A stretch of 64,000 nt of DNA, taken from positions 1-64,000 of IMG/VR virus record IMGVR_UViG_3300047552_000481, one strand, 5' to 3'. The DNA comes from a virus. The first letter of the stretch is position 1; each line of letters starts with the position of its first letter. A program made the translations under genes and the position numbers. The notes below the pieces were generated by a model, which was given only the letters and a program-made list of their open reading frames with translations, made no database searches and was not told where the DNA came from. Positions 2,708 to 60,737 of the stretch are shown here, in pieces.

Positions 2708-3709
2708 ATGGTTGATTTATATATTAAAAAACAAGATGAGACTTATATTATTTTGGAATCTGAGCAATCATTATTATATGAGATTTCAGAGTTATTTACA
2801 TTCTATGCTGATGGGTATCGGTACAATCCTAAATATAAGGCGAAGCTATGGGATGGAAAGATTAGGAGTTTAAGGCTGTTATCTAAGAATCGCGGAAGGA
2901 TATATGGTGGGTTATTAAGTAATATAATTTCTTTCTGTAAATCTAGAGATTATTCATATAAAATTGATGATGAATTAATATATAAGAATGAGATTTCAGA
3001 AGAAGATATTACTGGGTTTATAACTGAACAAAAATTGATGGCACATGGTAAAAAGATTGAGGCTCGTGATTATCAGATTAAGACTGTATTAGATTCTATT
3101 AATAAACATAAAGTAGTGATATTATCTGCAACTTCATCTGGTAAGTCATTAAGTTTATATTTATTAGCTCGATATTTTCAAGAGAAAGGATTGAAAGGGG
3201 TATTAGTAGTACCTAATGTATCATTAATTCATCAAATGTTTAATGATTTCAAAGATTATTCATCTGGTATTTCTTGGAATGTTGAAGATAATGTACATAA
3301 GATTTATCAAGATCAAATTCATGAAGCATTGAAAGATATTACAATTTCAACATATCAATCATTACATTTAATTAAGGACAACAATTTCTTTAAACAATTT
3401 GATTATGTGTTATGGGACGAGTGTTTTTCTGGTGATGCTAAAGTATTGACAAAATCTGGATATAAAAGAATTGATGAAATATCTGTGGGAGATATAGTTA
3501 TAAACTATAATGAACAAACAAAAACATTTAAAGAAGATGTTGTTGAAAAAGTACACCTAAATATAAGTGTACACGAAAAAATGTTTGAATTAGAATTTGA
3601 TAATGGTATCAAGATAAAAGTTACTGGGAATCACAAATTTTTAACTACCAACGGATGGATTAGAGCCGATCAATTAACAGAAAATGATGAGATAATTTCA
3701 TATGAATAA
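2708..3709 (+). CDS. uvsW: UvsW helicase N-extein (238 aa) fused to split intein N-fragment
   Basis: WDGKIR, RDYQ, SATSSGKS motif I, STYQS, VLWDE followed by CFSGDAKVLT. Confidence 0.92.
   Translation: MVDLYIKKQDETYIILESEQSLLYEISELFTFYADGYRYNPKYKAKLWDGKIRSLRLLSKNRGRIYGGLLSNIISFCKSRDYSYKIDDELIYKNEISEEDITGFITEQKLMAHGKKIEARDYQIKTVLDSINKHKVVILSATSSGKSLSLYLLARYFQEKGLKGVLVVPNVSLIHQMFNDFKDYSSGISWNVEDNVHKIYQDQIHEALKDITISTYQSLHLIKDNNFFKQFDYVLWDECFSGDAKVLTKSGYKRIDEISVGDIVINYNEQTKTFKEDVVEKVHLNISVHEKMFELEFDNGIKIKVTGNHKFLTTNGWIRADQLTENDEIISYE
3422..3706 (+). mobile_element. Split intein N-fragment (95 aa)
   Basis: Block A CFSGDAKVLT, block B IKVTGNHKFLT..GWIRADQL, then stop codon. Confidence 0.92.
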
Positions 3710-4601
3710 AGTAGAAAAACTTGTTTTAAAATATAACACAATTTTATCAACTAAAAATACTAATCTAAGATTGGTTTCATATTCAAATGGGGTAATAATA
3801 TTTAATAATGGTAGAGAAATTTCTGACCAAAAACAAATAGTGAACTTTAAGAATAGATTAAAATCCAACAGAAATTGGCCGCTTGATGATATTTATAGTA
3901 GTGATATAAATCGTGCCACAGAAATTGAAAATAATTTATTAAAAGAAATTCAATCTCAAGGAGGCAAAACAGTTCAGTCATTATACGGTGATAAAATCAG
4001 ATTAAATTTAAATACTGGTATTCCATGGAATACTGGCACAAAAGGTGTAAAAAATGGAACCCCTTGGACCGAAGAAAATAAAAGAAAATTGAGTGAATCA
4101 AGAAAAGGTGAAAATAATCCAATGTATGGTAGAAAATATACTGAAGAAGAGAAATTAAAACAATCTGAAAATATGAAATTGGCAATAAAATCTGGTAAAT
4201 TTACCCCAAAGTCTAATAATAGATTATCCAGAAAAGATTCCATATATAATGGTATTAATTTCAGATCATCTTGGGAAGCAATATTTTATTCATTAAACCA
4301 GTCATATGAATATGAGAAATTGAGAATTAAATATTTTAGTTCCAAAAAGAATAAATATAGAATTTATATTGTTGATTTTATTTCACATATTAATAAAATT
4401 GTAGTTGAGATAAAACCAAAAAAATCATTCAAAAGTGAAGAAATTGATAAAATCAAGGCATTATCAGTCTGGTGTAAGGAAAATGGGTATAAATTAAAAA
4501 TATACACTGATAATAAAATAAAAAGTATGGCAAAATTAGTAACAGATTTACACAATTTTGATAAAGTAACTCAATCTAATATATTAAAGCTAATAAAATG
4601 A
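3702..4601 (+). CDS. Free-standing endonuclease between intein halves (NUMOD3-like plus TnsA-like PD-(D/E)xK domain)
   Basis: SESRKGENNPMYGRK; FRSSWE..YEYEK.RIKY..YIVDF..VVEIKP; overlaps both flanking ORFs. Confidence 0.8.
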   Translation: MNKVEKLVLKYNTILSTKNTNLRLVSYSNGVIIFNNGREISDQKQIVNFKNRLKSNRNWPLDDIYSSDINRATEIENNLLKEIQSQGGKTVQSLYGDKIRLNLNTGIPWNTGTKGVKNGTPWTEENKRKLSESRKGENNPMYGRKYTEEEKLKQSENMKLAIKSGKFTPKSNNRLSRKDSIYNGINFRSSWEAIFYSLNQSYEYEKLRIKYFSSKKNKYRIYIVDFISHINKIVVEIKPKKSFKSEEIDKIKALSVWCKENGYKLKIYTDNKIKSMAKLVTDLHNFDKVTQSNILKLIK

Positions 4602-4702
4602 AACTAATCAATAAAATTGAAGTTCAAAAAGAATATACTACATACAATTTACACATTAAAACTGACCACAATTATATTGTTGAAAATGCGGTGGTTTCCA
4701 AT
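4598..4702 (+). mobile_element. Split intein C-fragment (35 aa)
   Basis: Block F/G ending in Ser-Asn, +1 residue Cys. Confidence 0.92.
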
Positions 4703-5494
4703 TGTCATCAGACAAAAGCGAATGTGATTCGTCTGATTATGGAAAAATTTGTGAATGCGAAATACAGATTAGGTTTTACTGGTAGTTTAGATGCGATTCA
4801 GGCGAACATAAAAACAATTACTGGACTTTTTGGACCAGTAAATAATATAATCACATCTAGAGAACTGATTGAACGTAAAGAGGCTACTCCATTACTGATT
4901 AAATGCTTAGTATTAAAATATGATGAGGACACCAGAAAAGCTAACAAGAAACTTAAGTACATTGATGAGGTTAAATATTTAATTTCTAATCATAAAAGAA
5001 ACGTATTCATTAAGAACTTAGCGTTAGCTCAGAAGCAGAATACAATTGTATTAAGTAATTATGTTGAAAAGCACGGAAGAATCCTATTTGATCTCATTAA
5101 TAATTCCAAACTGAAAGGAGATCGAAATGTATATTGGATTCATGGTAAAGTGGAATCAGAGGAACGTGAAAGGATACGGAACATACTGGAAACGGAAACT
5201 GGATCAATAATCGTAGCTACCACAAGTATCATGTCCACAGGAATCTCGATTCGGAACCTTCACAGTATAATATTAACAACACCCGGAAAAAGTACCATTA
5301 AGATCATACAGACTTGTGGGCGGTTACTGCGCTTAAACGACAATAAAGTTCAGGCGGTTCTATTTGATTTGGTTGATGACATGAGGATTAAGAACCATAA
5401 TAACTTCATGATCGAACATTATGTGGAACGGGTATCAGTCTATAATGAACAACAGTTTGATTACAAACTTATTAATGTTCCATTTGATCAATAA
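4598..5494 (+). CDS. uvsW: Split intein C-fragment fused to UvsW C-extein (263 aa)
   Basis: TYNLHIKTDHNYIVENAVVSN|CHQ; RLGFTGS, STGISIRNLH, IQTCGRLLR helicase motifs. Confidence 0.92.
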   Translation: MKLINKIEVQKEYTTYNLHIKTDHNYIVENAVVSNCHQTKANVIRLIMEKFVNAKYRLGFTGSLDAIQANIKTITGLFGPVNNIITSRELIERKEATPLLIKCLVLKYDEDTRKANKKLKYIDEVKYLISNHKRNVFIKNLALAQKQNTIVLSNYVEKHGRILFDLINNSKLKGDRNVYWIHGKVESEERERIRNILETETGSIIVATTSIMSTGISIRNLHSIILTTPGKSTIKIIQTCGRLLRLNDNKVQAVLFDLVDDMRIKNHNNFMIEHYVERVSVYNEQQFDYKLINVPFDQ

Positions 5495-5513
5495 ACAGAT
5501 GTTTCTAAGAATG

Positions 5514-5608
5514 AATCAATTGTAATTGGCGGGCCGAAGGACCGACGATGGAAAGTGGAAGAGTGAGCGTTAGCGAGGGATGACACTTTTCTTTTACTAC
5601 GACTGATT
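5514..5608 (+). other. GC-rich branched hairpin resembling a single-strand initiation / primosome assembly site
   Basis: Arms aatcaattgta/tacgactgatt and aaagtg/cacttt enclosing GGCCGAAGGACC and GAGCGTTAGCGAG. Confidence 0.35.
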
Positions 5609-5837
5609 AAGTTTCCTTTCATGTTAAATTAATATTCATATCACGCTTATTGATCTGAATCCAGTCTCAAAAGAAATGTAGTAGAACCCATTAAATCTCC
5701 ATTAACACGTAATAAATTTAATGGTTCTAATGAACATAGTACCCCTTATATCCACATAACTGGTGAGCTTAATCTCTTCTTTAGAATTAAAGTTGAACTT
5801 TATCTGATGAAGTGGAATCTTATCGAATTGAATAATA

Positions 5838-5957
5838 TTGATTCCAGTAATTAACTTTACCACGCGATCTTAATGTTATTATGTGGATTACGTGAGTTTT
5901 GTCTCTTTCTATGTGAATAATAACACTTGATTTCAGTAATGAATCTTATCACGCGAT
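5838..5957. repeat. Two 31-bp imperfect direct repeats (iteron-like)
   Basis: ttgattccagtaattaactttaccacgcgat (5838) vs ttgatttcagtaatgaatcttatcacgcgat (5927), 26/31 identical. Confidence 0.7.
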
Positions 5958-5999
5958 TTTGATTTGATGTAATTACACTTTTATTGATTCACGTTTTTT

Positions 6000-6489
6000 G
6001 GACATTACTTTTTACCCCCCCCCTTGAAGGTTTTTAAGGGAAAACTGCAACAGGCTAGGAACCTATAAGGCTTGGGTCACTGCTACAAAAACCACGATAG
6101 ACGTAATAGTGGGTATCTTATTATATAAAATAACCTACCCACCGAGAAAATAACCTCCTAGTTCGCCCCATTTAGAACCAGTGTCAAACTGCTACCCTAA
6201 CCTCATTGTGTTAGGTTGTTCTAAACTTCTTTTACCGCTGGGTCTTACTTCAGCTTAGGGTTGCTAATGTCCTTTTCAAAAATAGGATAGAGGGTTTCCT
6301 ATATTGCCCGACGTTTTTCGCCTGCTAGAGACGCTGGGAGACGTTCTGTGTATCAAAACACTGTATTTTTTAAGACCTTTTACCAGAAGAAGTCAAGTGG
6401 TATCCGTTCTCTAAAAAGGTTGTTCTACCTAATGATCCGCGATGAACCTACGAGAGCTTAATCTGAATTCTATCCCTATTAAATTTTAC
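6000..6489 (-). ncRNA. Candidate ~490-nt highly structured non-coding RNA, family unknown
   Basis: Own consensus promoter, no ORF, more than 10 nested helices with G-U wobbles on the minus strand, two long closing helices. Confidence 0.7.
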
Positions 6490-6495
6490 CGTACT

Positions 6496-6524
6496 ATTAT
6501 AACACAATTTTTAACAGTTGTCAA
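6496..6524 (-). promoter_or_regulatory. Consensus sigma70 promoter driving the non-coding region
   Basis: TTGACA-N17-TATAAT on minus strand. Confidence 0.88.
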
Positions 6525-6550
6525 CAAGTTTTTAACAATTCTTATACTAA

Positions 6551-6967
6551 TTAGACATCCTGAGAATTAGAAAGTTCCAAATTTTTATTCATTTCTGCAA
6601 TCATTTTTTCTCGATTTATTAATGCCTGTGTTTTATTTTTATTAGGAAGTTTCTCTAGTAATGTTTTTCTGGCTAGAGCATGTAATTCTGCTCTTAGATC
6701 ATCTGCTAAATGGTGATCATTTTGATGAGCATATAGTATTAATAATACTTTCAGATCTTCCAATATTTGGACAAGTTCATCTTTAGGAACATTCATATTA
6801 TAATCTTTTTTGACAAATGCAACTGCCTTATTAATTACTTCTTTTATAGTTCCCATTGTATATGGGGAATATATTGTAACTTTTCTTGGAATTTTGTAAA
6901 AAATCTTTTTAGGTATTTTTTCTGGTTTTGGACCTCTATTCACAACACGTCTTTTAGATTTTCTCAT
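6551..6967 (-). CDS. Hypothetical protein with very basic N-terminus
   Basis: 138-aa ORF, MRKSKRRVVNRGPKPEKIPKK. Confidence 0.6.
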   Translation of the reverse strand: MRKSKRRVVNRGPKPEKIPKKIFYKIPRKVTIYSPYTMGTIKEVINKAVAFVKKDYNMNVPKDELVQILEDLKVLLILYAHQNDHHLADDLRAELHALARKTLLEKLPNKNKTQALINREKMIAEMNKNLELSNSQDV

Positions 6968-11621: not shown

Positions 11622-11680
11622 TTCTTTTTATCATCAAAAGGGCACGTACTCATTATACAGCCCTGGAAACACCGTGTCAA
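11622..11680 (-). promoter_or_regulatory. Antisense sigma70 promoter plus conserved leader, copy 1
   Basis: TTGACA-N17-TATAAT-GAGTACGT..CTTTTGATGATAAAAAGAA; repeated at 60679. Confidence 0.8.
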
Positions 11681-14784: not shown

Positions 14785-16493
14785 TTATTATTAAAAAGAT
14801 CAAAGTAAAGAATTTCTTCTCTGTTGGCAATTCCCCAATAGAAATTGAATATGACAAATTCAATAAAACGTGCGTTGTTGGAATAAATGGTTCTTCTAAA
14901 AGTTCAGTAATTATTGATTCATTAATCTATGCTTTATACGGAAAACCATATAGAAAAGCCAATATTCCAACTATCATCAATTCTGTTAATAAGTCAAAAT
15001 TAGAGGTTGAGTTATTATTTAGTGTTGATGGAAAGGAATATAAAATTATAAGAGGTCAAAAGCCCACTAGATTTGAAATCTACTGTAATGGAGAATTATT
15101 AAACCAAGATGCTTCTAATAAAGATTATCAACAATATCTAGAAAACAATATTCTCCGAGTCAGTTATAAATCATTTACAAATGTTGTTATTCTTGGTTCG
15201 GCCAGATATAAACCATTCATGCAAATGCCTGCAGCAGATCGTAGAGAAATTATTGAAGATTTGCTCGATATCCAAGTTTTTTCAGTTATGAATGAATTGG
15301 CCAAAAGTAAATTATCAACACTAAAAATTAATCTGTCCGAATTGGATTATTCAACATCACTACTAAAGGAAAAAATAATCCTTCAAAAGAAACATATTAA
15401 AGAACAAAATAAATCAATAAAAACTCAACTAAATGAGAGTCAATCTCAAATAGACAAATATAATGAAGAAAATGCGAAACTGGAGAAAGATATATTTTTG
15501 ATTCAGAAACATGTAGATGTTCTTAATAATAAGATTTCTGACAGAACGAAATTGCAGAGTAAAGAACAAAAATTGATATCCATGGAAAGTAAGATGGAAT
15601 CAGCATTAAAGAAATTGAAAAAGGACATGGACTTTTATAAAACAAATGATACCTGTCCAACATGTTATCAAGGCATTGATCAGGAATTTAAAGAAACTCG
15701 ACTAGAGAAAGCTGAACTTAAGCAAAATGAATTTGCAGATGGGTTTGTCAAATTGGAAGAATCCATTGCAGATATTAAAAATAAATTAGAAGTGATGGAT
15801 ACAATTTATAATGATGTAATTAAACACCAAAATGAAATAATTAGGTTAAATTCGGTCTTGACAACCAACAAGAACCATGTTATAATGATCCAAAATTCAA
15901 TGGCAAATGTGAAAGAAAATTCTACATCTGTGGGCAATTTACAACAACTTGATGATGAATTAGAGGATTTAACAGGTCAAATAAATAGGTTAAATGAAGA
16001 AAAGGAATATCTTGATACTGCCTTGACTTATCTGAAAGATTCTGGTATAAAGGCAAAAATTATAAAAAAGTATGTTCCACTCTTGAATGCAACGATAAAT
16101 AAGTATTTACAGAAGTTAAAATTATACTTTACGTTTCAGATTGACGAGAATTTTAAGGAGAAATTAAAAGCCAGACATCGAGATGAATTCTCATATGAAA
16201 ATATGAGTGAAGGTGAAAAATTAAGATTAGATTTAGCAATATTATTTTCATTTCGAGAAATATCGAAAATCAAGAATTCTGTAAATTGTAATATATTGAT
16301 TATGGATGAAATTATGGATTCAAGTTTAGATGATATGGGACAGGTTGAATTGATTGATATATTATCCGAATTTATTAATCAGAACATTTTCATTATATCT
16401 CATAAAACAGATAACATATTAGATTCATTTGAAAGAGTCTTGGAATTTGAAAAGAAAGGTAATTTTGCTAAACTATGTGAAGTTGTATTATAA
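14781..16493 (+). CDS. gp46: Recombination ATPase subunit (Rad50/SbcC-like)
   Basis: KNFFSVGN, CPTC zinc hook, SEGEK, IMDE, ISH. Confidence 0.95.
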   Translation: MIIIKKIKVKNFFSVGNSPIEIEYDKFNKTCVVGINGSSKSSVIIDSLIYALYGKPYRKANIPTIINSVNKSKLEVELLFSVDGKEYKIIRGQKPTRFEIYCNGELLNQDASNKDYQQYLENNILRVSYKSFTNVVILGSARYKPFMQMPAADRREIIEDLLDIQVFSVMNELAKSKLSTLKINLSELDYSTSLLKEKIILQKKHIKEQNKSIKTQLNESQSQIDKYNEENAKLEKDIFLIQKHVDVLNNKISDRTKLQSKEQKLISMESKMESALKKLKKDMDFYKTNDTCPTCYQGIDQEFKETRLEKAELKQNEFADGFVKLEESIADIKNKLEVMDTIYNDVIKHQNEIIRLNSVLTTNKNHVIMIQNSMANVKENSTSVGNLQQLDDELEDLTGQINRLNEEKEYLDTALTYLKDSGIKAKIIKKYVPLLNATINKYLQKLKLYFTFQIDENFKEKLKARHRDEFSYENMSEGEKLRLDLAILFSFREISKIKNSVNCNILIMDEIMDSSLDDMGQVELIDILSEFINQNIFIISHKTDNILDSFERVLEFEKKGNFAKLCEVVL

Positions 16494-33612: not shown

Positions 33613-34452
33613 ATGAAAAACAAAGTAACTTACAAATTAATGATAAAAATACACAGAAAAACAAAATTGAAATATCTGTGTATGACCAAGAAAAATGATT
33701 ATAAGAAATATACCGGATCTGGTAAATATTGGAAACTACATTTAAAAGTTCACGGAAAGGATATTAAAACAATTTTAATATTTGAAACTGAAAGTGAAGA
33801 AGAATTGGCTAAAGTGGGATTATACTTTTCCAAAAAATACAATATTGTAGAATCTGATGATTGGGCAAATTTAAAATTTGAGTGTGGGTATGATGGTGAT
33901 CCAGATGTAGGATATCGAATAGGTAGATCTAATTATCATAGAAAAATTGGAATACATGATCCAAAATATAAACACCTTAAAGTAATTTGGTCAAAAAAGG
34001 GTGGTGTAATCGGTGGAAAGAAAACCCGTGAGAATAAAAGTGGGATATTTTCTGGTGATTGGGACAGATCAGCACAATCAATTAAAAATTATGAGAATGG
34101 TATAGGATTCTCATCGATTCCATTGGAAGACAAAAGAAAAAATGGTAGAATAGGTGGAAGTATAAGTAGAGATATGAAATTGGGCATTTTTGGAGCTTCA
34201 AAAGAAGATAAAACCAGATGGGCAAAAGAAAACGGAAGTTTGGGTGGAATACGTTGTAGGGATGAAAAATTAGGAATGTTTAAAAGGACCAGAGAAAATT
34301 TTTTAAAAGATTGTAGTGATGCTGGAAAAATTGGAGGAAAGGTTGTTGGTAGTATGTTGTGGTGGAATAATGGACAAATCAATAAGAAAAGTAATGAATG
34401 TCCAGGCGAAGGATTTGTTCGTGGTCAACTTAAAAAGTCAAAAGGTAAATAA
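33613..34452 (+). CDS. GIY-YIG-like homing endonuclease with Gly-rich repeats
   Basis: LMIKIH..LKYLC.T..Y.GSGKYW..HL..WANL..E; GG..GG..K.GIF repeats; WWNNG. Confidence 0.75.
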   Translation: MKNKVTYKLMIKIHRKTKLKYLCMTKKNDYKKYTGSGKYWKLHLKVHGKDIKTILIFETESEEELAKVGLYFSKKYNIVESDDWANLKFECGYDGDPDVGYRIGRSNYHRKIGIHDPKYKHLKVIWSKKGGVIGGKKTRENKSGIFSGDWDRSAQSIKNYENGIGFSSIPLEDKRKNGRIGGSISRDMKLGIFGASKEDKTRWAKENGSLGGIRCRDEKLGMFKRTRENFLKDCSDAGKIGGKVVGSMLWWNNGQINKKSNECPGEGFVRGQLKKSKGK

Positions 34453-34453
34453 T

Positions 34454-35497
34454 ATGGGTAACTTATTAGATAAAATAATGAAAGCTGGTACAATAAAACA
34501 CGCTGAAATTTTGTCAGAATCTTCTTTCTTTAATACTAAAGATGTAATTAAAACTAATTTGCCAATATTAAATTTGGCGTTTTCAGGTAATCTTGATGGT
34601 GGAATTGTTCCAGGTATAACCGTATTTGCTGGAATATCAAAATCATTTAAAACCTTATTAGGTTTATACTGTATGAAAGCCTATTTTGATAAGTATCCAG
34701 ATGCAATTGCACTAGTTTATGATTCTGAATTTGGAATTACTCCTGAATATTTGGTATCAAATGAAATTGATACCAACAGAGTAATCCATATTCCAGTAGA
34801 ACACGTTGAACAACTAAAATTTGACATTGTTAAAAGATTGGAACAAATTTCTCGTGGTGATAAAGTTTTTATTTTAATAGATTCTTTGGGGGCAGTACCA
34901 TCTAAAAAGGAATTGGATGATGCCATAGACGAAAAATCTGTAGCAGATTTAAGTAGAGCAAAATCGATCCGCAGCCTAATTCGTATTATTACGCCCCATA
35001 TCACCATGAAAGATATTCCATTGATTATTGTTAATCACGTTTATCAATCAATGGAATTATACTCTAAACCTGTTGTTGGAGGAGGAACATCAGTTATTTA
35101 TGCTGCTAATCAGGTGTTTATTATAACAAAGGCACAAGAAAAGGACGGCACCGAATTAACGGGATTTAATTTTACAATTAACATAGAAAAGTCTCGCTTT
35201 GTAAAAGAAAAATCAAAATTTCCGTTTTTAGTTTCATTCGAATCTGGCATTTCAAAATGGTCTGGTTTGATGGATATCGCATTAGAATTGAATTTTTGCA
35301 CCAAACCGGTGCAAGGGTGGTATTCTAGAGTTAACGTCAAGACTGGAGAAATTGAAGAAAAAAGATATCGTTTAAAAGACACCAATAATTCTGAATTCTG
35401 GACACCCATTTTAAATTCCCAAGAATTCAAAGATGCTGTCTATAATAAATATGCTCTTTCAGCACACAAATTAATGGAGGTAGAAAATGACGTATGA
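34454..35497 (+). CDS. uvsX: RecA-like recombinase UvsX
   Basis: AGISKSFKT, YDSEFG, DSLG, VNH.Y, EKSRFVKEK. Confidence 0.96.
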   Translation: MGNLLDKIMKAGTIKHAEILSESSFFNTKDVIKTNLPILNLAFSGNLDGGIVPGITVFAGISKSFKTLLGLYCMKAYFDKYPDAIALVYDSEFGITPEYLVSNEIDTNRVIHIPVEHVEQLKFDIVKRLEQISRGDKVFILIDSLGAVPSKKELDDAIDEKSVADLSRAKSIRSLIRIITPHITMKDIPLIIVNHVYQSMELYSKPVVGGGTSVIYAANQVFIITKAQEKDGTELTGFNFTINIEKSRFVKEKSKFPFLVSFESGISKWSGLMDIALELNFCTKPVQGWYSRVNVKTGEIEEKRYRLKDTNNSEFWTPILNSQEFKDAVYNKYALSAHKLMEVENDV

Positions 35498-53243: not shown

Positions 53244-53629
53244 TGTTGAACAATTTAACCCATGAGAATTTTATTTTGTTTGCGGCAAATAACTATATTT
53301 CGCCCCATTATATCGAAAGTGAATTTTTTACTGACTTAAAGAAATTTAAGTATATTAAAAGATTGATAAATAAGTATAATACAACAGGTGATTTGAAATG
53401 TAGATTGCTACTGAACCATATTATTATGGTGTACAATGTCTTCAATACCGAAGCATGTACAAAAATGCTTTTTTTAAAGAATAATGAAATAGATTATGTT
53501 ATATTGAAAACATTTTTAGTATATTTGAATTATATGCCAGATCTTATAAAAGGTGTAAACGGGAAAGATATAATATCATCTGATATAGGTTTAGATTTCA
53601 ACGTAGTTAACATATTAAGAGAAATATGA
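53243..53629 (+). CDS. Conserved T4-like hypothetical protein
   Basis: NF.LFA..NY..P..EF..DLK.FKYIKRL..RLLLNHII..YNVF. Confidence 0.7.
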   Translation: MLNNLTHENFILFAANNYISPHYIESEFFTDLKKFKYIKRLINKYNTTGDLKCRLLLNHIIMVYNVFNTEACTKMLFLKNNEIDYVILKTFLVYLNYMPDLIKGVNGKDIISSDIGLDFNVVNILREI

Positions 53630-53793
53630 TATTCAAAGATTTTAGAAAAAAACTTAAAGAAGATTTTGCTGGAACCGGAGTTTCTGGTGTCGCTGGCATT
53701 GGTGTTCCTGTAAATGGGGATAAAGCCCAAGCCGAACCAGGAGGTAAAGCAGCAAAAATGACTTTATTAAAAAGAAAAAAGAGGATCAAATGA
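53626..53793 (+). CDS. Small protein with capsid-targeting-like leader (not in ORF track)
   Basis: MIFKDFRKKLKE DFAGTGVSGVAGIG..EPG; ATGA overlaps at both ends. Confidence 0.6.
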   Translation: MIFKDFRKKLKEDFAGTGVSGVAGIGVPVNGDKAQAEPGGKAAKMTLLKRKKRIK

Positions 53794-60678: not shown

Positions 60679-60737
60679 TTCTTTTTATCATCAAAAGCCG
60701 ACGTACTCATTATACAGCCTAAATTTCTGCTTGTCAA
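60679..60737 (-). promoter_or_regulatory. Antisense sigma70 promoter plus conserved leader, copy 2
   Basis: TTGACA-N17-TATAAT-GAGTACGT..CTTTTGATGATAAAAAGAA. Confidence 0.8.

What the first reader, a model, noticed from the sequence alone, without database searches (positions are those of the whole stretch)
6000..6524. Promoter-driven ~490-nt multi-domain, pseudoknotted non-coding RNA next to uvsW
Seen: a perfect TTGACA-N17-TATAAT promoter (6524-6496, minus) fires into an ORF-free, GC-elevated stretch in an otherwise densely coding genome. By hand the minus-strand RNA folds into two closed domains. Domain 1 is closed by 6480-6469 pairing with 6291-6281 and holds about 5 hairpins. Domain 2 is closed by GGACAUUA (6272-6265) with UAAUGUCC (6007-6000) and holds nested junctions (UUUAGAAC/GUUCUAAA, CCUAAC/GUUAGG, CUAGGA/UCCUAG, GGUGGGUA/UACCCACU, GGUUAU/GUGACC). 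The imperfect pairs I checked read as G-U on the minus strand, matching the promoter direction. Two perfect 7-bp inter-domain complementarities could form pseudoknots: GGUCUUA (6377-6371) with UAAGACC (6247-6241), and loop ACUUCUU (6393-6387) with AAGAAGU (6231-6225). Inference: a large tertiary-folded RNA of roughly ROOL/OLE size that I cannot assign to tmRNA, RNase P, or group I/II introns; possibly a new phage ncRNA class.
Basis: partly seen in the sequence, partly recalled or inferred. Interest (0 to 1): 0.88.

Follow-up and report, generated by a model that had tools for sequence, protein, structure and literature searches.

The report
Orphan promoter-driven non-coding stretch in phage
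A freshwater T4-like phage has a strong host-type promoter aimed at about 500 gene-free, GC-enriched bases, probably an untranslated early RNA, but the elaborate fold proposed for it is no better than chance and no relatives exist to test it.

Summary
The raw observation holds. A perfect TTGACA-N17-TATAAT promoter with an extended -10 sits at 6524-6496 (-). It is one of nine perfect promoters in the window, against 0.34 expected. It fires into the largest ORF-free gap of the window, where GC is about 0.41 against 0.31 overall.

The interpretation as a two-domain, pseudoknotted, ROOL/OLE-sized RNA is not supported:
- The whole-RNA fold has z = -0.29, domain 1 z = -0.48 and domain 2 z = -2.08.
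- Perfect 7-nt complementarities are rarer here than in typical windows of this genome, so the two proposed pseudoknots are at chance level.
- Rfam gives nothing, even at E <= 10.
- No homologue turned up beside uvsW in 81 related loci, in 20 related phage records, or in pattern scans of three collections. Covariation therefore cannot be tested.
- A 95-99% identical strain in a second lake sample breaks two predicted pairs without compensation.

Best reading: a lineage-specific, untranslated early transcript that is only locally structured, function unknown. The rivals are an R-loop or primer RNA of a replication origin, a transcribed remnant, and a leader for small peptides. Interest is modest.

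The scan has reported similar promoter-plus-GC-island loci in other phages, but none resembles this one in sequence.

The parts
6496..6524 (-). Perfect sigma-70-type early promoter (TTGACA, 17-nt spacer with TG, TATAAT). The predicted transcription start is near 6489.
   Evidence: scores it 12/12. One search finds 9 perfect promoters in the window against 0.34 expected, and none of 100 shuffles reaches 9. It is unchanged in the second-sample strain.
6000..6489 (-).
   Evidence: GC is 0.39-0.425. No open frame exceeds 38 aa on this strand or 56 aa on the other. No Pfam or PHROG signal appears in any frame. No Rfam hit appears even at E <= 10. The whole-RNA fold gives z = -0.29.
6100..6225 (-). 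The only locally well-folding part. It holds a three-way junction (UUUAGAAC/GUUCUAAA, CCUAAC/GUUAGG, CAGU/ACUG) and the long hairpin GGUGGGUA...UACCCACU.
   Evidence: The windowed z-score is about -2.9 for 6100-6219, and -3.3 on the opposite strand. These helices are present in both the MFE and the centroid folds.
6015..6023 (-). G9 run in the RNA (C9 on the + strand), about 470 nt from the predicted start.
   Evidence: It is the longest G or C homopolymer in the 64-kb window. The next longest is 7.
5838..5968 (-). Two direct repeats, 89 nt apart (5927-5968 and 5838-5879; 31-nt core ATCGCGTG.TAA..TT.ATTACTG.AATCAA).
   Evidence: two copies in the window, none in shuffles. The similarity continues across a 4-nt indel, so it is kept at the nucleic-acid level, not the peptide level. 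No further copy exists in IMG/VR.
5668..5728 (-). Long A/U-rich hairpin followed by a U-rich tail. It is the likeliest 3' end of the unit, giving an RNA of about 810-820 nt.
   Evidence: The centroid fold shows a 15-bp stem. The hairpin matches simple-hairpin Rfam models only weakly. Two strain substitutions in the stem, at 5718 and 5697, keep the pairing (A-U to G-U, G-U to A-U). The fold z-score alone is not significant (-0.8).
6551..6967 (-). Upstream gene for a 138-aa ORFan protein. Its stop codon lies 27 nt before the -35 hexamer.
   Evidence: It has no Pfam or PHROG family. It has no relative among 5.8 billion proteins or 1.84 billion representatives. Six of nine strain differences fall at third codon positions, which marks it as a real gene. 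The AlphaFold model is of low confidence and helical.
4598..5494 (+). C-terminal half of a split UvsW helicase, convergent with the unit.
   Evidence: It matches Pfam Helicase_C and phrog_9690 or phrog_16 DNA helicase. The closest relatives are 58% identical or less.

Best explanation
The locus is a real, lineage-specific early transcription unit whose product is an untranslated RNA. Host RNA polymerase starts at the consensus promoter near 6489. It transcribes about 490 nt of GC-enriched, slightly G-rich sequence with no reading frame, then a G9 run, then about 300 nt of ordinary A/T-rich sequence carrying two direct repeats. Transcription probably stops at the hairpin and U-tract at 5728-5668.

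Shown: the promoter class, the lack of coding capacity, the composition, and the presence of the stretch in two samples.

Inferred: that the RNA is made and that the RNA itself is the functional product. Only one part, 6225-6100, looks like a stable structural element. The RNA is therefore best described as a partly structured early non-coding RNA, not as a large globular two-domain RNA.

My working mechanism is that it acts as an RNA early in infection, as a regulator or a decoy. The target is not identified.
For: - The promoter belongs to a ninefold over-represented class of perfect promoters, and one of that class drives the tRNA genes.
- Among the nine, only this one and the tRNA promoter are followed by a long gene-free stretch; a third, at 15858, lies inside a long ORF. 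The remaining six reach an ORF of 40 aa or more after 23-316 nt.
- It is the largest ORF-free gap in a window that is about 95% coding.
- The only other GC-elevated ORF-free gap of the window is the tRNA cluster.
- No protein-family signal appears in any frame.
- The RNA strand is G-rich relative to C (C/G = 0.82 overall, 0.73 in domain 2), which makes it a poor Rho substrate.
- Domain 2 folds somewhat better than shuffles (z = -2.08). The tRNA control gives a comparable -2.55.
- In a 95-99% identical strain, 6282-6489 carries 5 substitutions in 208 nt. Third codon positions of the flanking genes carry 8 in 118 (Fisher p = 0.075), which is a weak hint of constraint.
Against: - There is no transcript evidence at all.
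- Whole-RNA and domain 1 folding are indistinguishable from shuffles.
- No homologue exists anywhere, so there is no covariation.
- GC of about 0.41 also occurs in coding parts of this genome, so the composition could simply mark imported DNA.
- Two of six strain substitutions break predicted pairs.
- The 3' end is inferred from a weak hairpin.
Confidence: 0.45

Rival explanations
1. Transcribed remnant. The GC-richer 500 nt are decayed imported DNA, part of the cassette inserted next to uvsW. It happens to lie behind a promoter whose real job is elsewhere, for example insulating the convergent uvsW unit or driving the downstream repeats. The RNA has no function of its own.
For: - The locus is an orphan. 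Related T4-like phages have no comparable gap beside uvsW and no sequence or structural match.
- The neighbouring 138-aa gene is an ORFan as well.
- Folding is at shuffle level over most of the length.
- Direct and inverted repeat counts are ordinary for this genome.
- Other stretches with GC of about 0.41 in the window are coding, so high GC is not specific to RNA genes here.
Against: - No trace of a reading frame or of any protein family remains.
- Phage genomes this dense rarely keep 0.5-1 kb of useless DNA.
- Divergence between strains is, if anything, lower than at neighbouring synonymous sites.
- The promoter is a perfect consensus.
Confidence: 0.25
2. Replication-origin primer RNA. The untranslated, G-skewed transcript forms a persistent RNA-DNA hybrid (R-loop), nucleated at the G9 run. 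It is then processed to prime leading-strand synthesis into the downstream A/T-rich region, as at T4 oriF, oriG or oriE, or as with ColE1 RNA II.
For: - T4 origins consist of a promoter plus a downstream unwinding element. [quoted passage not shown] UvsW removes these R-loops late in infection (PMC3016281, read).
- This locus has an early promoter at a strand switch beside uvsW.
- The RNA is untranslated and G-rich relative to C.
- It carries the only G9/C9 run of the window.
- Two direct repeats lie downstream.
- Nascent untranslated transcripts are prone to form R-loops (abstract of PMC3977913, listed).
Against: - The 'A/T-rich zone' (68-74% A+T) is simply the genome background of 69%, so no distinct unwinding element is visible.
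- It lies about 480 nt from the promoter, whereas in T4 the whole minimal origin, promoter plus unwinding element, is about 100 bp.
- There are only two repeats, 79% alike.
- The site is one of convergent, not divergent, transcription.
- Nothing here measures replication.
Confidence: 0.15
3. One reading: a roughly 490-nt RNA with two closed domains and two inter-domain pseudoknots. It would be a new class of large tertiary-folded phage RNA comparable to ROOL, GOLLD or OLE.
For: - The setting (own promoter, no ORF, raised GC in an A/T-rich phage) matches that of known large phage RNAs.
- The MFE fold reproduces the hand-drawn closing helices.
- Domain 2 gives z = -2.08.
- Earlier notes of this scan report that similar loci in other phages turned out to be conserved large RNAs. 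These notes are unchecked and unrelated in sequence.
Against: - Whole-RNA z = -0.29 and domain 1 z = -0.48, with non-negative z in all windows that lie within domain 1.
- There are 15 perfect 7-nt complementary pairs in the region, against a mean of 25.6 in genome windows. Two of them linking the domains is what chance gives.
- There is no strand asymmetry beyond composition.
- There are no homologues, so there is no covariation.
- Strain variants break a pair in the domain 1 closing helix (G-C to A-C at 6474) and a pair of the long domain 1 hairpin (at 6446), without compensation.
Confidence: 0.08
4. Long leader plus small-peptide genes. The unit is an mRNA for one or more short ORFs in its 3' third (31-43 aa at 5988-5857, 53-55 aa at 5869-5702). 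The GC-rich part would be a 5' untranslated leader.
For: - Two open frames of 43 and 55 codons lie in 5988-5702.
- They begin with similar peptides (RVIRFITEIK and RVVKLITGIN).
- The stop codon of the first overlaps a GTG of the second.
- A strain substitution changes TAA to TGA at the end of the second frame, so the stop is kept.
Against: - Neither GTG is preceded by a ribosome-binding site (sequence).
- The similarity between the two repeats continues through a 4-nt indel that shifts the frame, so it is conserved as nucleic acid and not as peptide.
- The frames match no family.
- A 500-600-nt leader would be unique among the promoters of this phage. The six perfect promoters that lie directly ahead of genes reach an ORF of 40 aa or more after 23-316 nt.
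Confidence: 0.07

Closest known systems
Large 'ornate' phage and bacterial ncRNAs (ROOL RF03087, GOLLD RF02032, OLE RF01071)
   Same: It is several hundred nucleotides long, lies in a phage genome and has no ORF. It has its own host-type promoter. GC is raised relative to its surroundings.
   Different: No Rfam match appears even at E <= 10. Folding is not better than shuffles. No family of homologues exists and no covariation can be shown. It is not next to the tRNA cluster.
T4 replication origins oriF, oriG and oriE (promoter, R-loop primer, unwinding element) and the ColE1 RNA II pre-primer
   Same: It has a host-type early promoter at a switch of transcribed strand next to uvsW. The transcript is untranslated. 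A G-rich run could nucleate an RNA-DNA hybrid. Direct repeats lie downstream (PMC3016281).
   Different: The T4 minimal origin is about 100 bp, with the unwinding element downstream of the promoter within that span. Here the candidate zone lies about 480 nt away and is no more A/T-rich than the genome. No antisense RNA I-like partner and no replication data exist.
Stable RNAs transcribed from phage early promoters (tRNA clusters and phage tmRNAs of related T4-like phages; RNAs C and D of T4, from my own knowledge)
   Same: The promoter is of the same class as the one before this phage's own tRNA genes. The stretch is GC-elevated and ORF-free like the tRNA gap. Relatives carry tmRNA genes of similar length.
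   Different: ARAGORN and all Rfam tRNA and tmRNA models find nothing here.

Membership tests
ROOL / GOLLD / OLE / raiA / HEARO and all other Rfam 15 families | A match to the family covariance model at or near its gathering score | tested here: not met
   At gathering thresholds the window gives only two tRNAs. A permissive scan of 5500-6700 at E <= 10 gives only weak hits (all E >= 0.16). The one hit that lies inside 5990-6495 is rli43 at 10.9 bits against a gathering score of 100; a ceN108 hit (6497-6563) lies over the promoter.
Large structured ncRNA (generic) | Folding free energy clearly below dinucleotide shuffles | tested here: not met
   Whole RNA z = -0.29 and domain 1 z = -0.48. Only domain 2 (-2.08) and the window 6100-6219 (-2.9, on both strands) are below shuffles.
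Large structured ncRNA (generic) | Homologues with compensatory base changes in the proposed helices | tested here: inconclusive
   No homologues were found. The only variants come from a 95-99% identical strain: four substitutions at unpaired positions and two that break pairs, with none compensatory.
tmRNA (standard or permuted) | A tRNA-like domain with a T-arm and a tag reading frame, detectable by ARAGORN or the Rfam tmRNA models | tested here: not met
   ARAGORN finds none in the window, and no tmRNA-clan hit appears at E <= 10. The same tools find tmRNAs readily in the related phages G005 and G006.
Group I / group II introns, RNase P RNA | Conserved catalytic core, and for introns, interruption of a host gene | tested here: not met
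   No hit to RF00028, RF00029, the domain V models or the RNase P models at E <= 10. The stretch lies after the stop codon of the 138-aa gene and carries its own promoter. No interrupted frame is visible.
T4-type R-loop origin | A promoter followed closely by a distinctly A/T-rich unwinding element | tested here: not met
   The first 490 transcribed nucleotides are the most GC-rich of the locus. The zone after them has 68-74% A+T, against 69% for the genome.
T4-type R-loop origin / ColE1-type primer | Replication initiates at the site and a persistent RNA-DNA hybrid forms there | not testable with these tools
   Only assembled contigs of DNA runs were available, and they carry no depth profile.
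Trans-acting antisense regulator | Exceptional complementarity to a translation start of a target mRNA | tested here: inconclusive
   Positions 6133-6104 are 27/30 complementary to the uvsX start region. Only 1 of 300 shuffles reaches that BLAST score. The duplex energy (-28.9 kcal/mol) is ordinary against 305 start-site and interior control windows (mean -22.4, sd about 4). Start sites are not favoured over gene interiors.

The most novel reading that the evidence does not exclude
The stretch is the founding, so far single-lineage member of a new kind of phage RNA. One possibility is a large structured early RNA whose relatives have simply not been sampled. The other is an RNA II-like primer, with a G-run-nucleated R-loop, marking a replication origin beside uvsW in a T4-like phage that lacks MotA-type middle promoters.
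Probability: 0.12. Interest if true: 0.7.

Novelty: new member of a known kind. Interest (0 to 1): 0.3.

Why it matters
If the RNA is real and functional, it would add an uncultured freshwater T4-like lineage to the short list of phages that express long non-coding RNAs early in infection. Its position beside uvsW would also make the R-loop origin idea testable outside T4. As it stands, the value of the finding is mainly cautionary. A perfect promoter, an ORF-free gap and raised GC are real signals. A hand-drawn multi-domain fold with 7-8-bp helices and 'pseudoknots' carries no weight until it beats shuffles or shows covariation.

Tried and rejected
Homologue searches that came back empty:
- blastn ('distant' mode, 11-base words) against 50,697 phage records.
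- nhmmer and blastn against 81 UvsW-centred IMG/VR loci.
- blastn against the whole records of 20 related T4-like phages, two of them complete.
- A single-sequence covariance model of 6232-6056 against the same records.
- Relatives of the 138-aa neighbour in IMG/VR and in JGI metagenomes, and of the 610-aa neighbour.
- Exact-pattern scans of IMG/VR, of metagenome contigs and of genome contigs. These gave only chance 19-21-mers, or tandem-repeat genes of giant viruses.

The contigs of the closest UvsW relatives (58% identity or less) could therefore not be fetched.

Sequencing runs: no RNA holder is listed. Runs X3 and X4 leave 5786-6281 almost uncovered: only a 35-nt look-alike at 5953-5987 in X4.

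Readings rejected:
- Pseudogene: stop-to-stop frames are 56 aa or shorter and match no Pfam or PHROG family.
- Decayed tRNA cluster or tmRNA: no weak tRNA or tmRNA hits.
- Iteron-rich origin: counts of exact direct repeats are ordinary for this genome.
- Functional partner protein: the AlphaFold model of the 138-aa neighbour has a mean pLDDT of 58 and was too poor for a fold search.
- Antisense control of uvsX: not supported by duplex energies.
- The top 'target' in the duplex scan was a spurious minus-strand ORF inside the + strand gene 53626-53793. It reflects sense-to-sense similarity, not antisense pairing.
- The 35-nt look-alike of 5953-5987 in other contigs is a short A/T-rich match and was not pursued.

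Full report
**Context**

The window is the first 64 kb of a 79-kb IMG/VR virus record, estimated at about 44% complete. It is a T4-like phage from freshwater metagenomes. Its UvsW C-terminal half is at most 58% identical to anything among 5.8 billion proteins and about 45% identical to cyanophage UvsW.

The plus-strand genes end at 5494 with the C-terminal half of a split UvsW. That half follows a gene for a NUMOD3/TnsA-like endonuclease. Minus-strand genes run from 11191 down to 6551. Positions 5495-6550 lie between these two convergent blocks.

**What is really there**

The promoter at 6524-6496 (-) matches the consensus at 12 of 12 positions and has TG before the -10 hexamer. It is not a chance match. 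The window holds nine perfect TTGACA-N16-18-TATAAT sites against 0.34 expected, and none of 100 shuffles reaches nine. One of the nine sits just before the two tRNA genes. One lies inside a long ORF. The remaining six reach an ORF of 40 aa or more after 23-316 nt. Only this promoter and the tRNA promoter are followed by a long stretch with no gene at all.

Positions 5864-6550 form the largest gap without an ORF of 50 aa or more in the window, and only five gaps of 200 nt or more exist. Stop-to-stop frames inside 5990-6500 are 56 aa or shorter and hit no Pfam or PHROG family.

GC reaches 0.39-0.425 over 6000-6500, against a window mean of 0.308. That is about 3.7 sd above the mean for 400-nt windows. 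Four coding stretches reach similar values, however, so the composition does not by itself mark an RNA gene. The only other GC-elevated ORF-free gap is the tRNA cluster.

Independently assembled contigs from the source sample read the same across 5300-6900. A second sample from another study holds a 95-99% identical strain.

**The proposed fold**

Every helix and both 7-nt 'pseudoknot' complementarities are at the stated coordinates. RNAfold recovers the two closing helices and most of the inner ones. None of this exceeds chance.

- The 506-nt RNA folds at -126.6 kcal/mol against -124.8 +/- 6.1 for dinucleotide shuffles, so z = -0.29.
- The opposite strand gives z = -0.58. The 10 kcal/mol advantage of the minus strand is matched by its shuffles, so there is no G-U strand signal beyond composition.
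- Domain 1 alone gives z = -0.48.
- Domain 2 gives z = -2.08, with 6 of 200 shuffles as good, and its boundaries were picked on the closing helix.
- In 120-nt windows, all of domain 1 has z >= 0. Only 6100-6219 stands out (z about -2.9), on both strands. This window holds the three-way junction and the GGUGGGUA/UACCCACU hairpin. The tRNA control gives -2.55.
- The region holds 15 perfect 7-nt and 2 perfect 8-nt complementary pairs. Same-sized windows of this genome average 25.6 and 8.8, and 96% and 99% of them hold at least as many. Two 7-nt matches linking the halves are therefore expected by chance.

**Known families**

Rfam 15 gives only the two tRNAs at gathering thresholds. A permissive scan of 5500-6700 at E <= 10 gives only weak hits: one inside the RNA, at 10.9 bits against a gathering score of 100, and one over the promoter. 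ARAGORN finds no tRNA or tmRNA there. The same tools readily find a standard tmRNA and a permuted tmRNA in two related complete phages.

**Search for relatives**

There are none.

- No match in 50,697 phage records.
- No match by nhmmer or blastn in 81 UvsW-centred IMG/VR loci, and no comparable ORF-free GC-raised gap in those loci.
- No match in the full records of 20 related phages, by BLAST or with a covariance model of the best-folding part.
- The adjacent 138-aa gene is an ORFan in IMG/VR, in JGI metagenomes, among 5.8 billion proteins and among 1.84 billion cluster representatives.
- Exact-pattern scans of three collections returned nothing or only chance words.

Covariation therefore cannot be assessed with public data reachable here.

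**The one natural variant**

The second-sample strain covers 6282-6570 and 5431-5752. Of its six substitutions inside the RNA, four fall at positions unpaired in the MFE fold. Two break predicted pairs without compensation: U-A to A-A at 6446, and G-C to A-C at 6474 in the helix that closes domain 1. The second comes from one low-depth contig.

Divergence in 6282-6489 is 5 in 208 nt, against 8 in 118 third codon positions of the flanking genes (Fisher p = 0.075). This is a weak hint that the stretch is not drifting freely.

Six of nine differences in the 138-aa gene are at third positions, so that ORFan is a real gene. In the downstream hairpin at 5728-5683, two substitutions keep the pairing, A-U to G-U and G-U to A-U. 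This fits a functional 3' hairpin. With its U-rich tail it is my best guess for the end of the unit, which would then be about 810-820 nt.

**The 3' third**

The RNA carries a G9 run at 6023-6015, the longest G or C homopolymer of the window. No terminator follows it.

Next come two direct repeats 89 nt apart. They read in frame as similar peptides at the start of two small open frames. However, the DNA similarity continues through a frame-shifting 4-nt indel, and no ribosome-binding site precedes either GTG. I therefore read them as nucleic-acid motifs, not genes.

Overall counts of exact direct repeats in the gap are ordinary for this genome. The 'A/T-rich zone' has the genome's own composition.

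**What it most likely is**

The promoter, the lack of coding capacity, the parallel with the tRNA promoter, the G-over-C bias of the RNA strand and the slightly low divergence lead me to read the locus as a genuine early, untranslated transcription unit. Its product acts as RNA and has one locally stable structural element. My confidence is about 0.45.

The main rival, at 0.25, is a transcribed remnant of imported DNA. This fits the orphan status of the locus and of its neighbour gene.

An R-loop or primer role at a replication origin gets 0.15. It draws on T4 precedent: promoter-dependent R-loop origins at switches of the transcribed strand, an early-promoter origin with direct repeats, and UvsW as the R-loop remover (PMC3016281). 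It also draws on the G9 run. It lacks a distinct unwinding element and any replication data.

A small-peptide mRNA gets 0.07.

**Leads followed and dropped**

The loop and 3' arm of the best hairpin (6133-6104) are 27/30 complementary to the start-codon region of uvsX (34454-35497, phrog_97). Only 1 of 300 shuffles reaches that BLAST score. But the duplex energy of -28.9 kcal/mol is ordinary against 305 start-site and interior control windows. Start sites as a class pair no better than gene interiors. I record this as a weak lead only.

**Earlier notes of this scan**

They also include several promoter-plus-GC-island loci in other phages that follow-up agents judged to be conserved large RNAs. 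None shares sequence with this one. They raised my prior slightly but are not evidence.

**Verdict**

Noticed in passing
L116:12248-12641 (+) and L107:2868-3263 (-): Two complete or nearly complete related T4-like phage records (G006, G005) encode tmRNAs. One is standard (RF00023, 143 bits, tag ANSNDFADYALAA). The other is permuted or two-piece (RF04321 at 106.6 bits, RF01850 at 104 bits). They sit beside clusters of 10 and 28 tRNA genes.
   Followed up: partly
L116:15960-16613 (+): A stretch of about 650 nt inside the tRNA cluster of G006 has no ORF, tRNA or Rfam hit. It folds better than shuffles (z = -2.73, 0 of 20 shuffles as good). It contains a hammerhead-like core (CUGAUGA, short hairpin, GAAAC) and two TTGACA boxes. 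It has no sequence similarity to the window's RNA.
   Followed up: no
window 6489-6495, 11645-11651, 60702-60708 (-): The three minus-strand perfect promoters share the first transcribed letters (G)AGTACG immediately after TATAAT. The six plus-strand ones do not.
   Followed up: no
window 6104-6133 (-) and 34450-34478 (+): The loop and 3' arm of the best hairpin of the RNA are 27/30 complementary to the start-codon region of uvsX (phrog_97). The match is unusual by BLAST score (1 of 300 shuffles) but ordinary by duplex energy.
   Followed up: partly
window 6148-6179 (-) and 53705-53755 (+): There is sense-to-sense similarity (a 9-mer plus 12 of 13, separated by a 13-nt gap) between the RNA and the inside of the small gene 53626-53793 (55 aa). 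It may be chance or a trace of shared origin.
   Followed up: partly
window 6551-6967 (-): The 138-aa protein has no relative among 5.8 billion proteins or 1.84 billion representatives. Yet strain differences concentrate at third codon positions (6 of 9), so it is a real, lineage-restricted gene.
   Followed up: yes
window 2708-5494 (+): uvsW is split. A NUMOD3/TnsA-like endonuclease gene (3702-4601) lies before the half that carries Helicase_C (4598-5494). Split forms of about 300 aa also occur among relatives (for example P0011, P0022, P0026 and P0030-P0041).
   Followed up: partly
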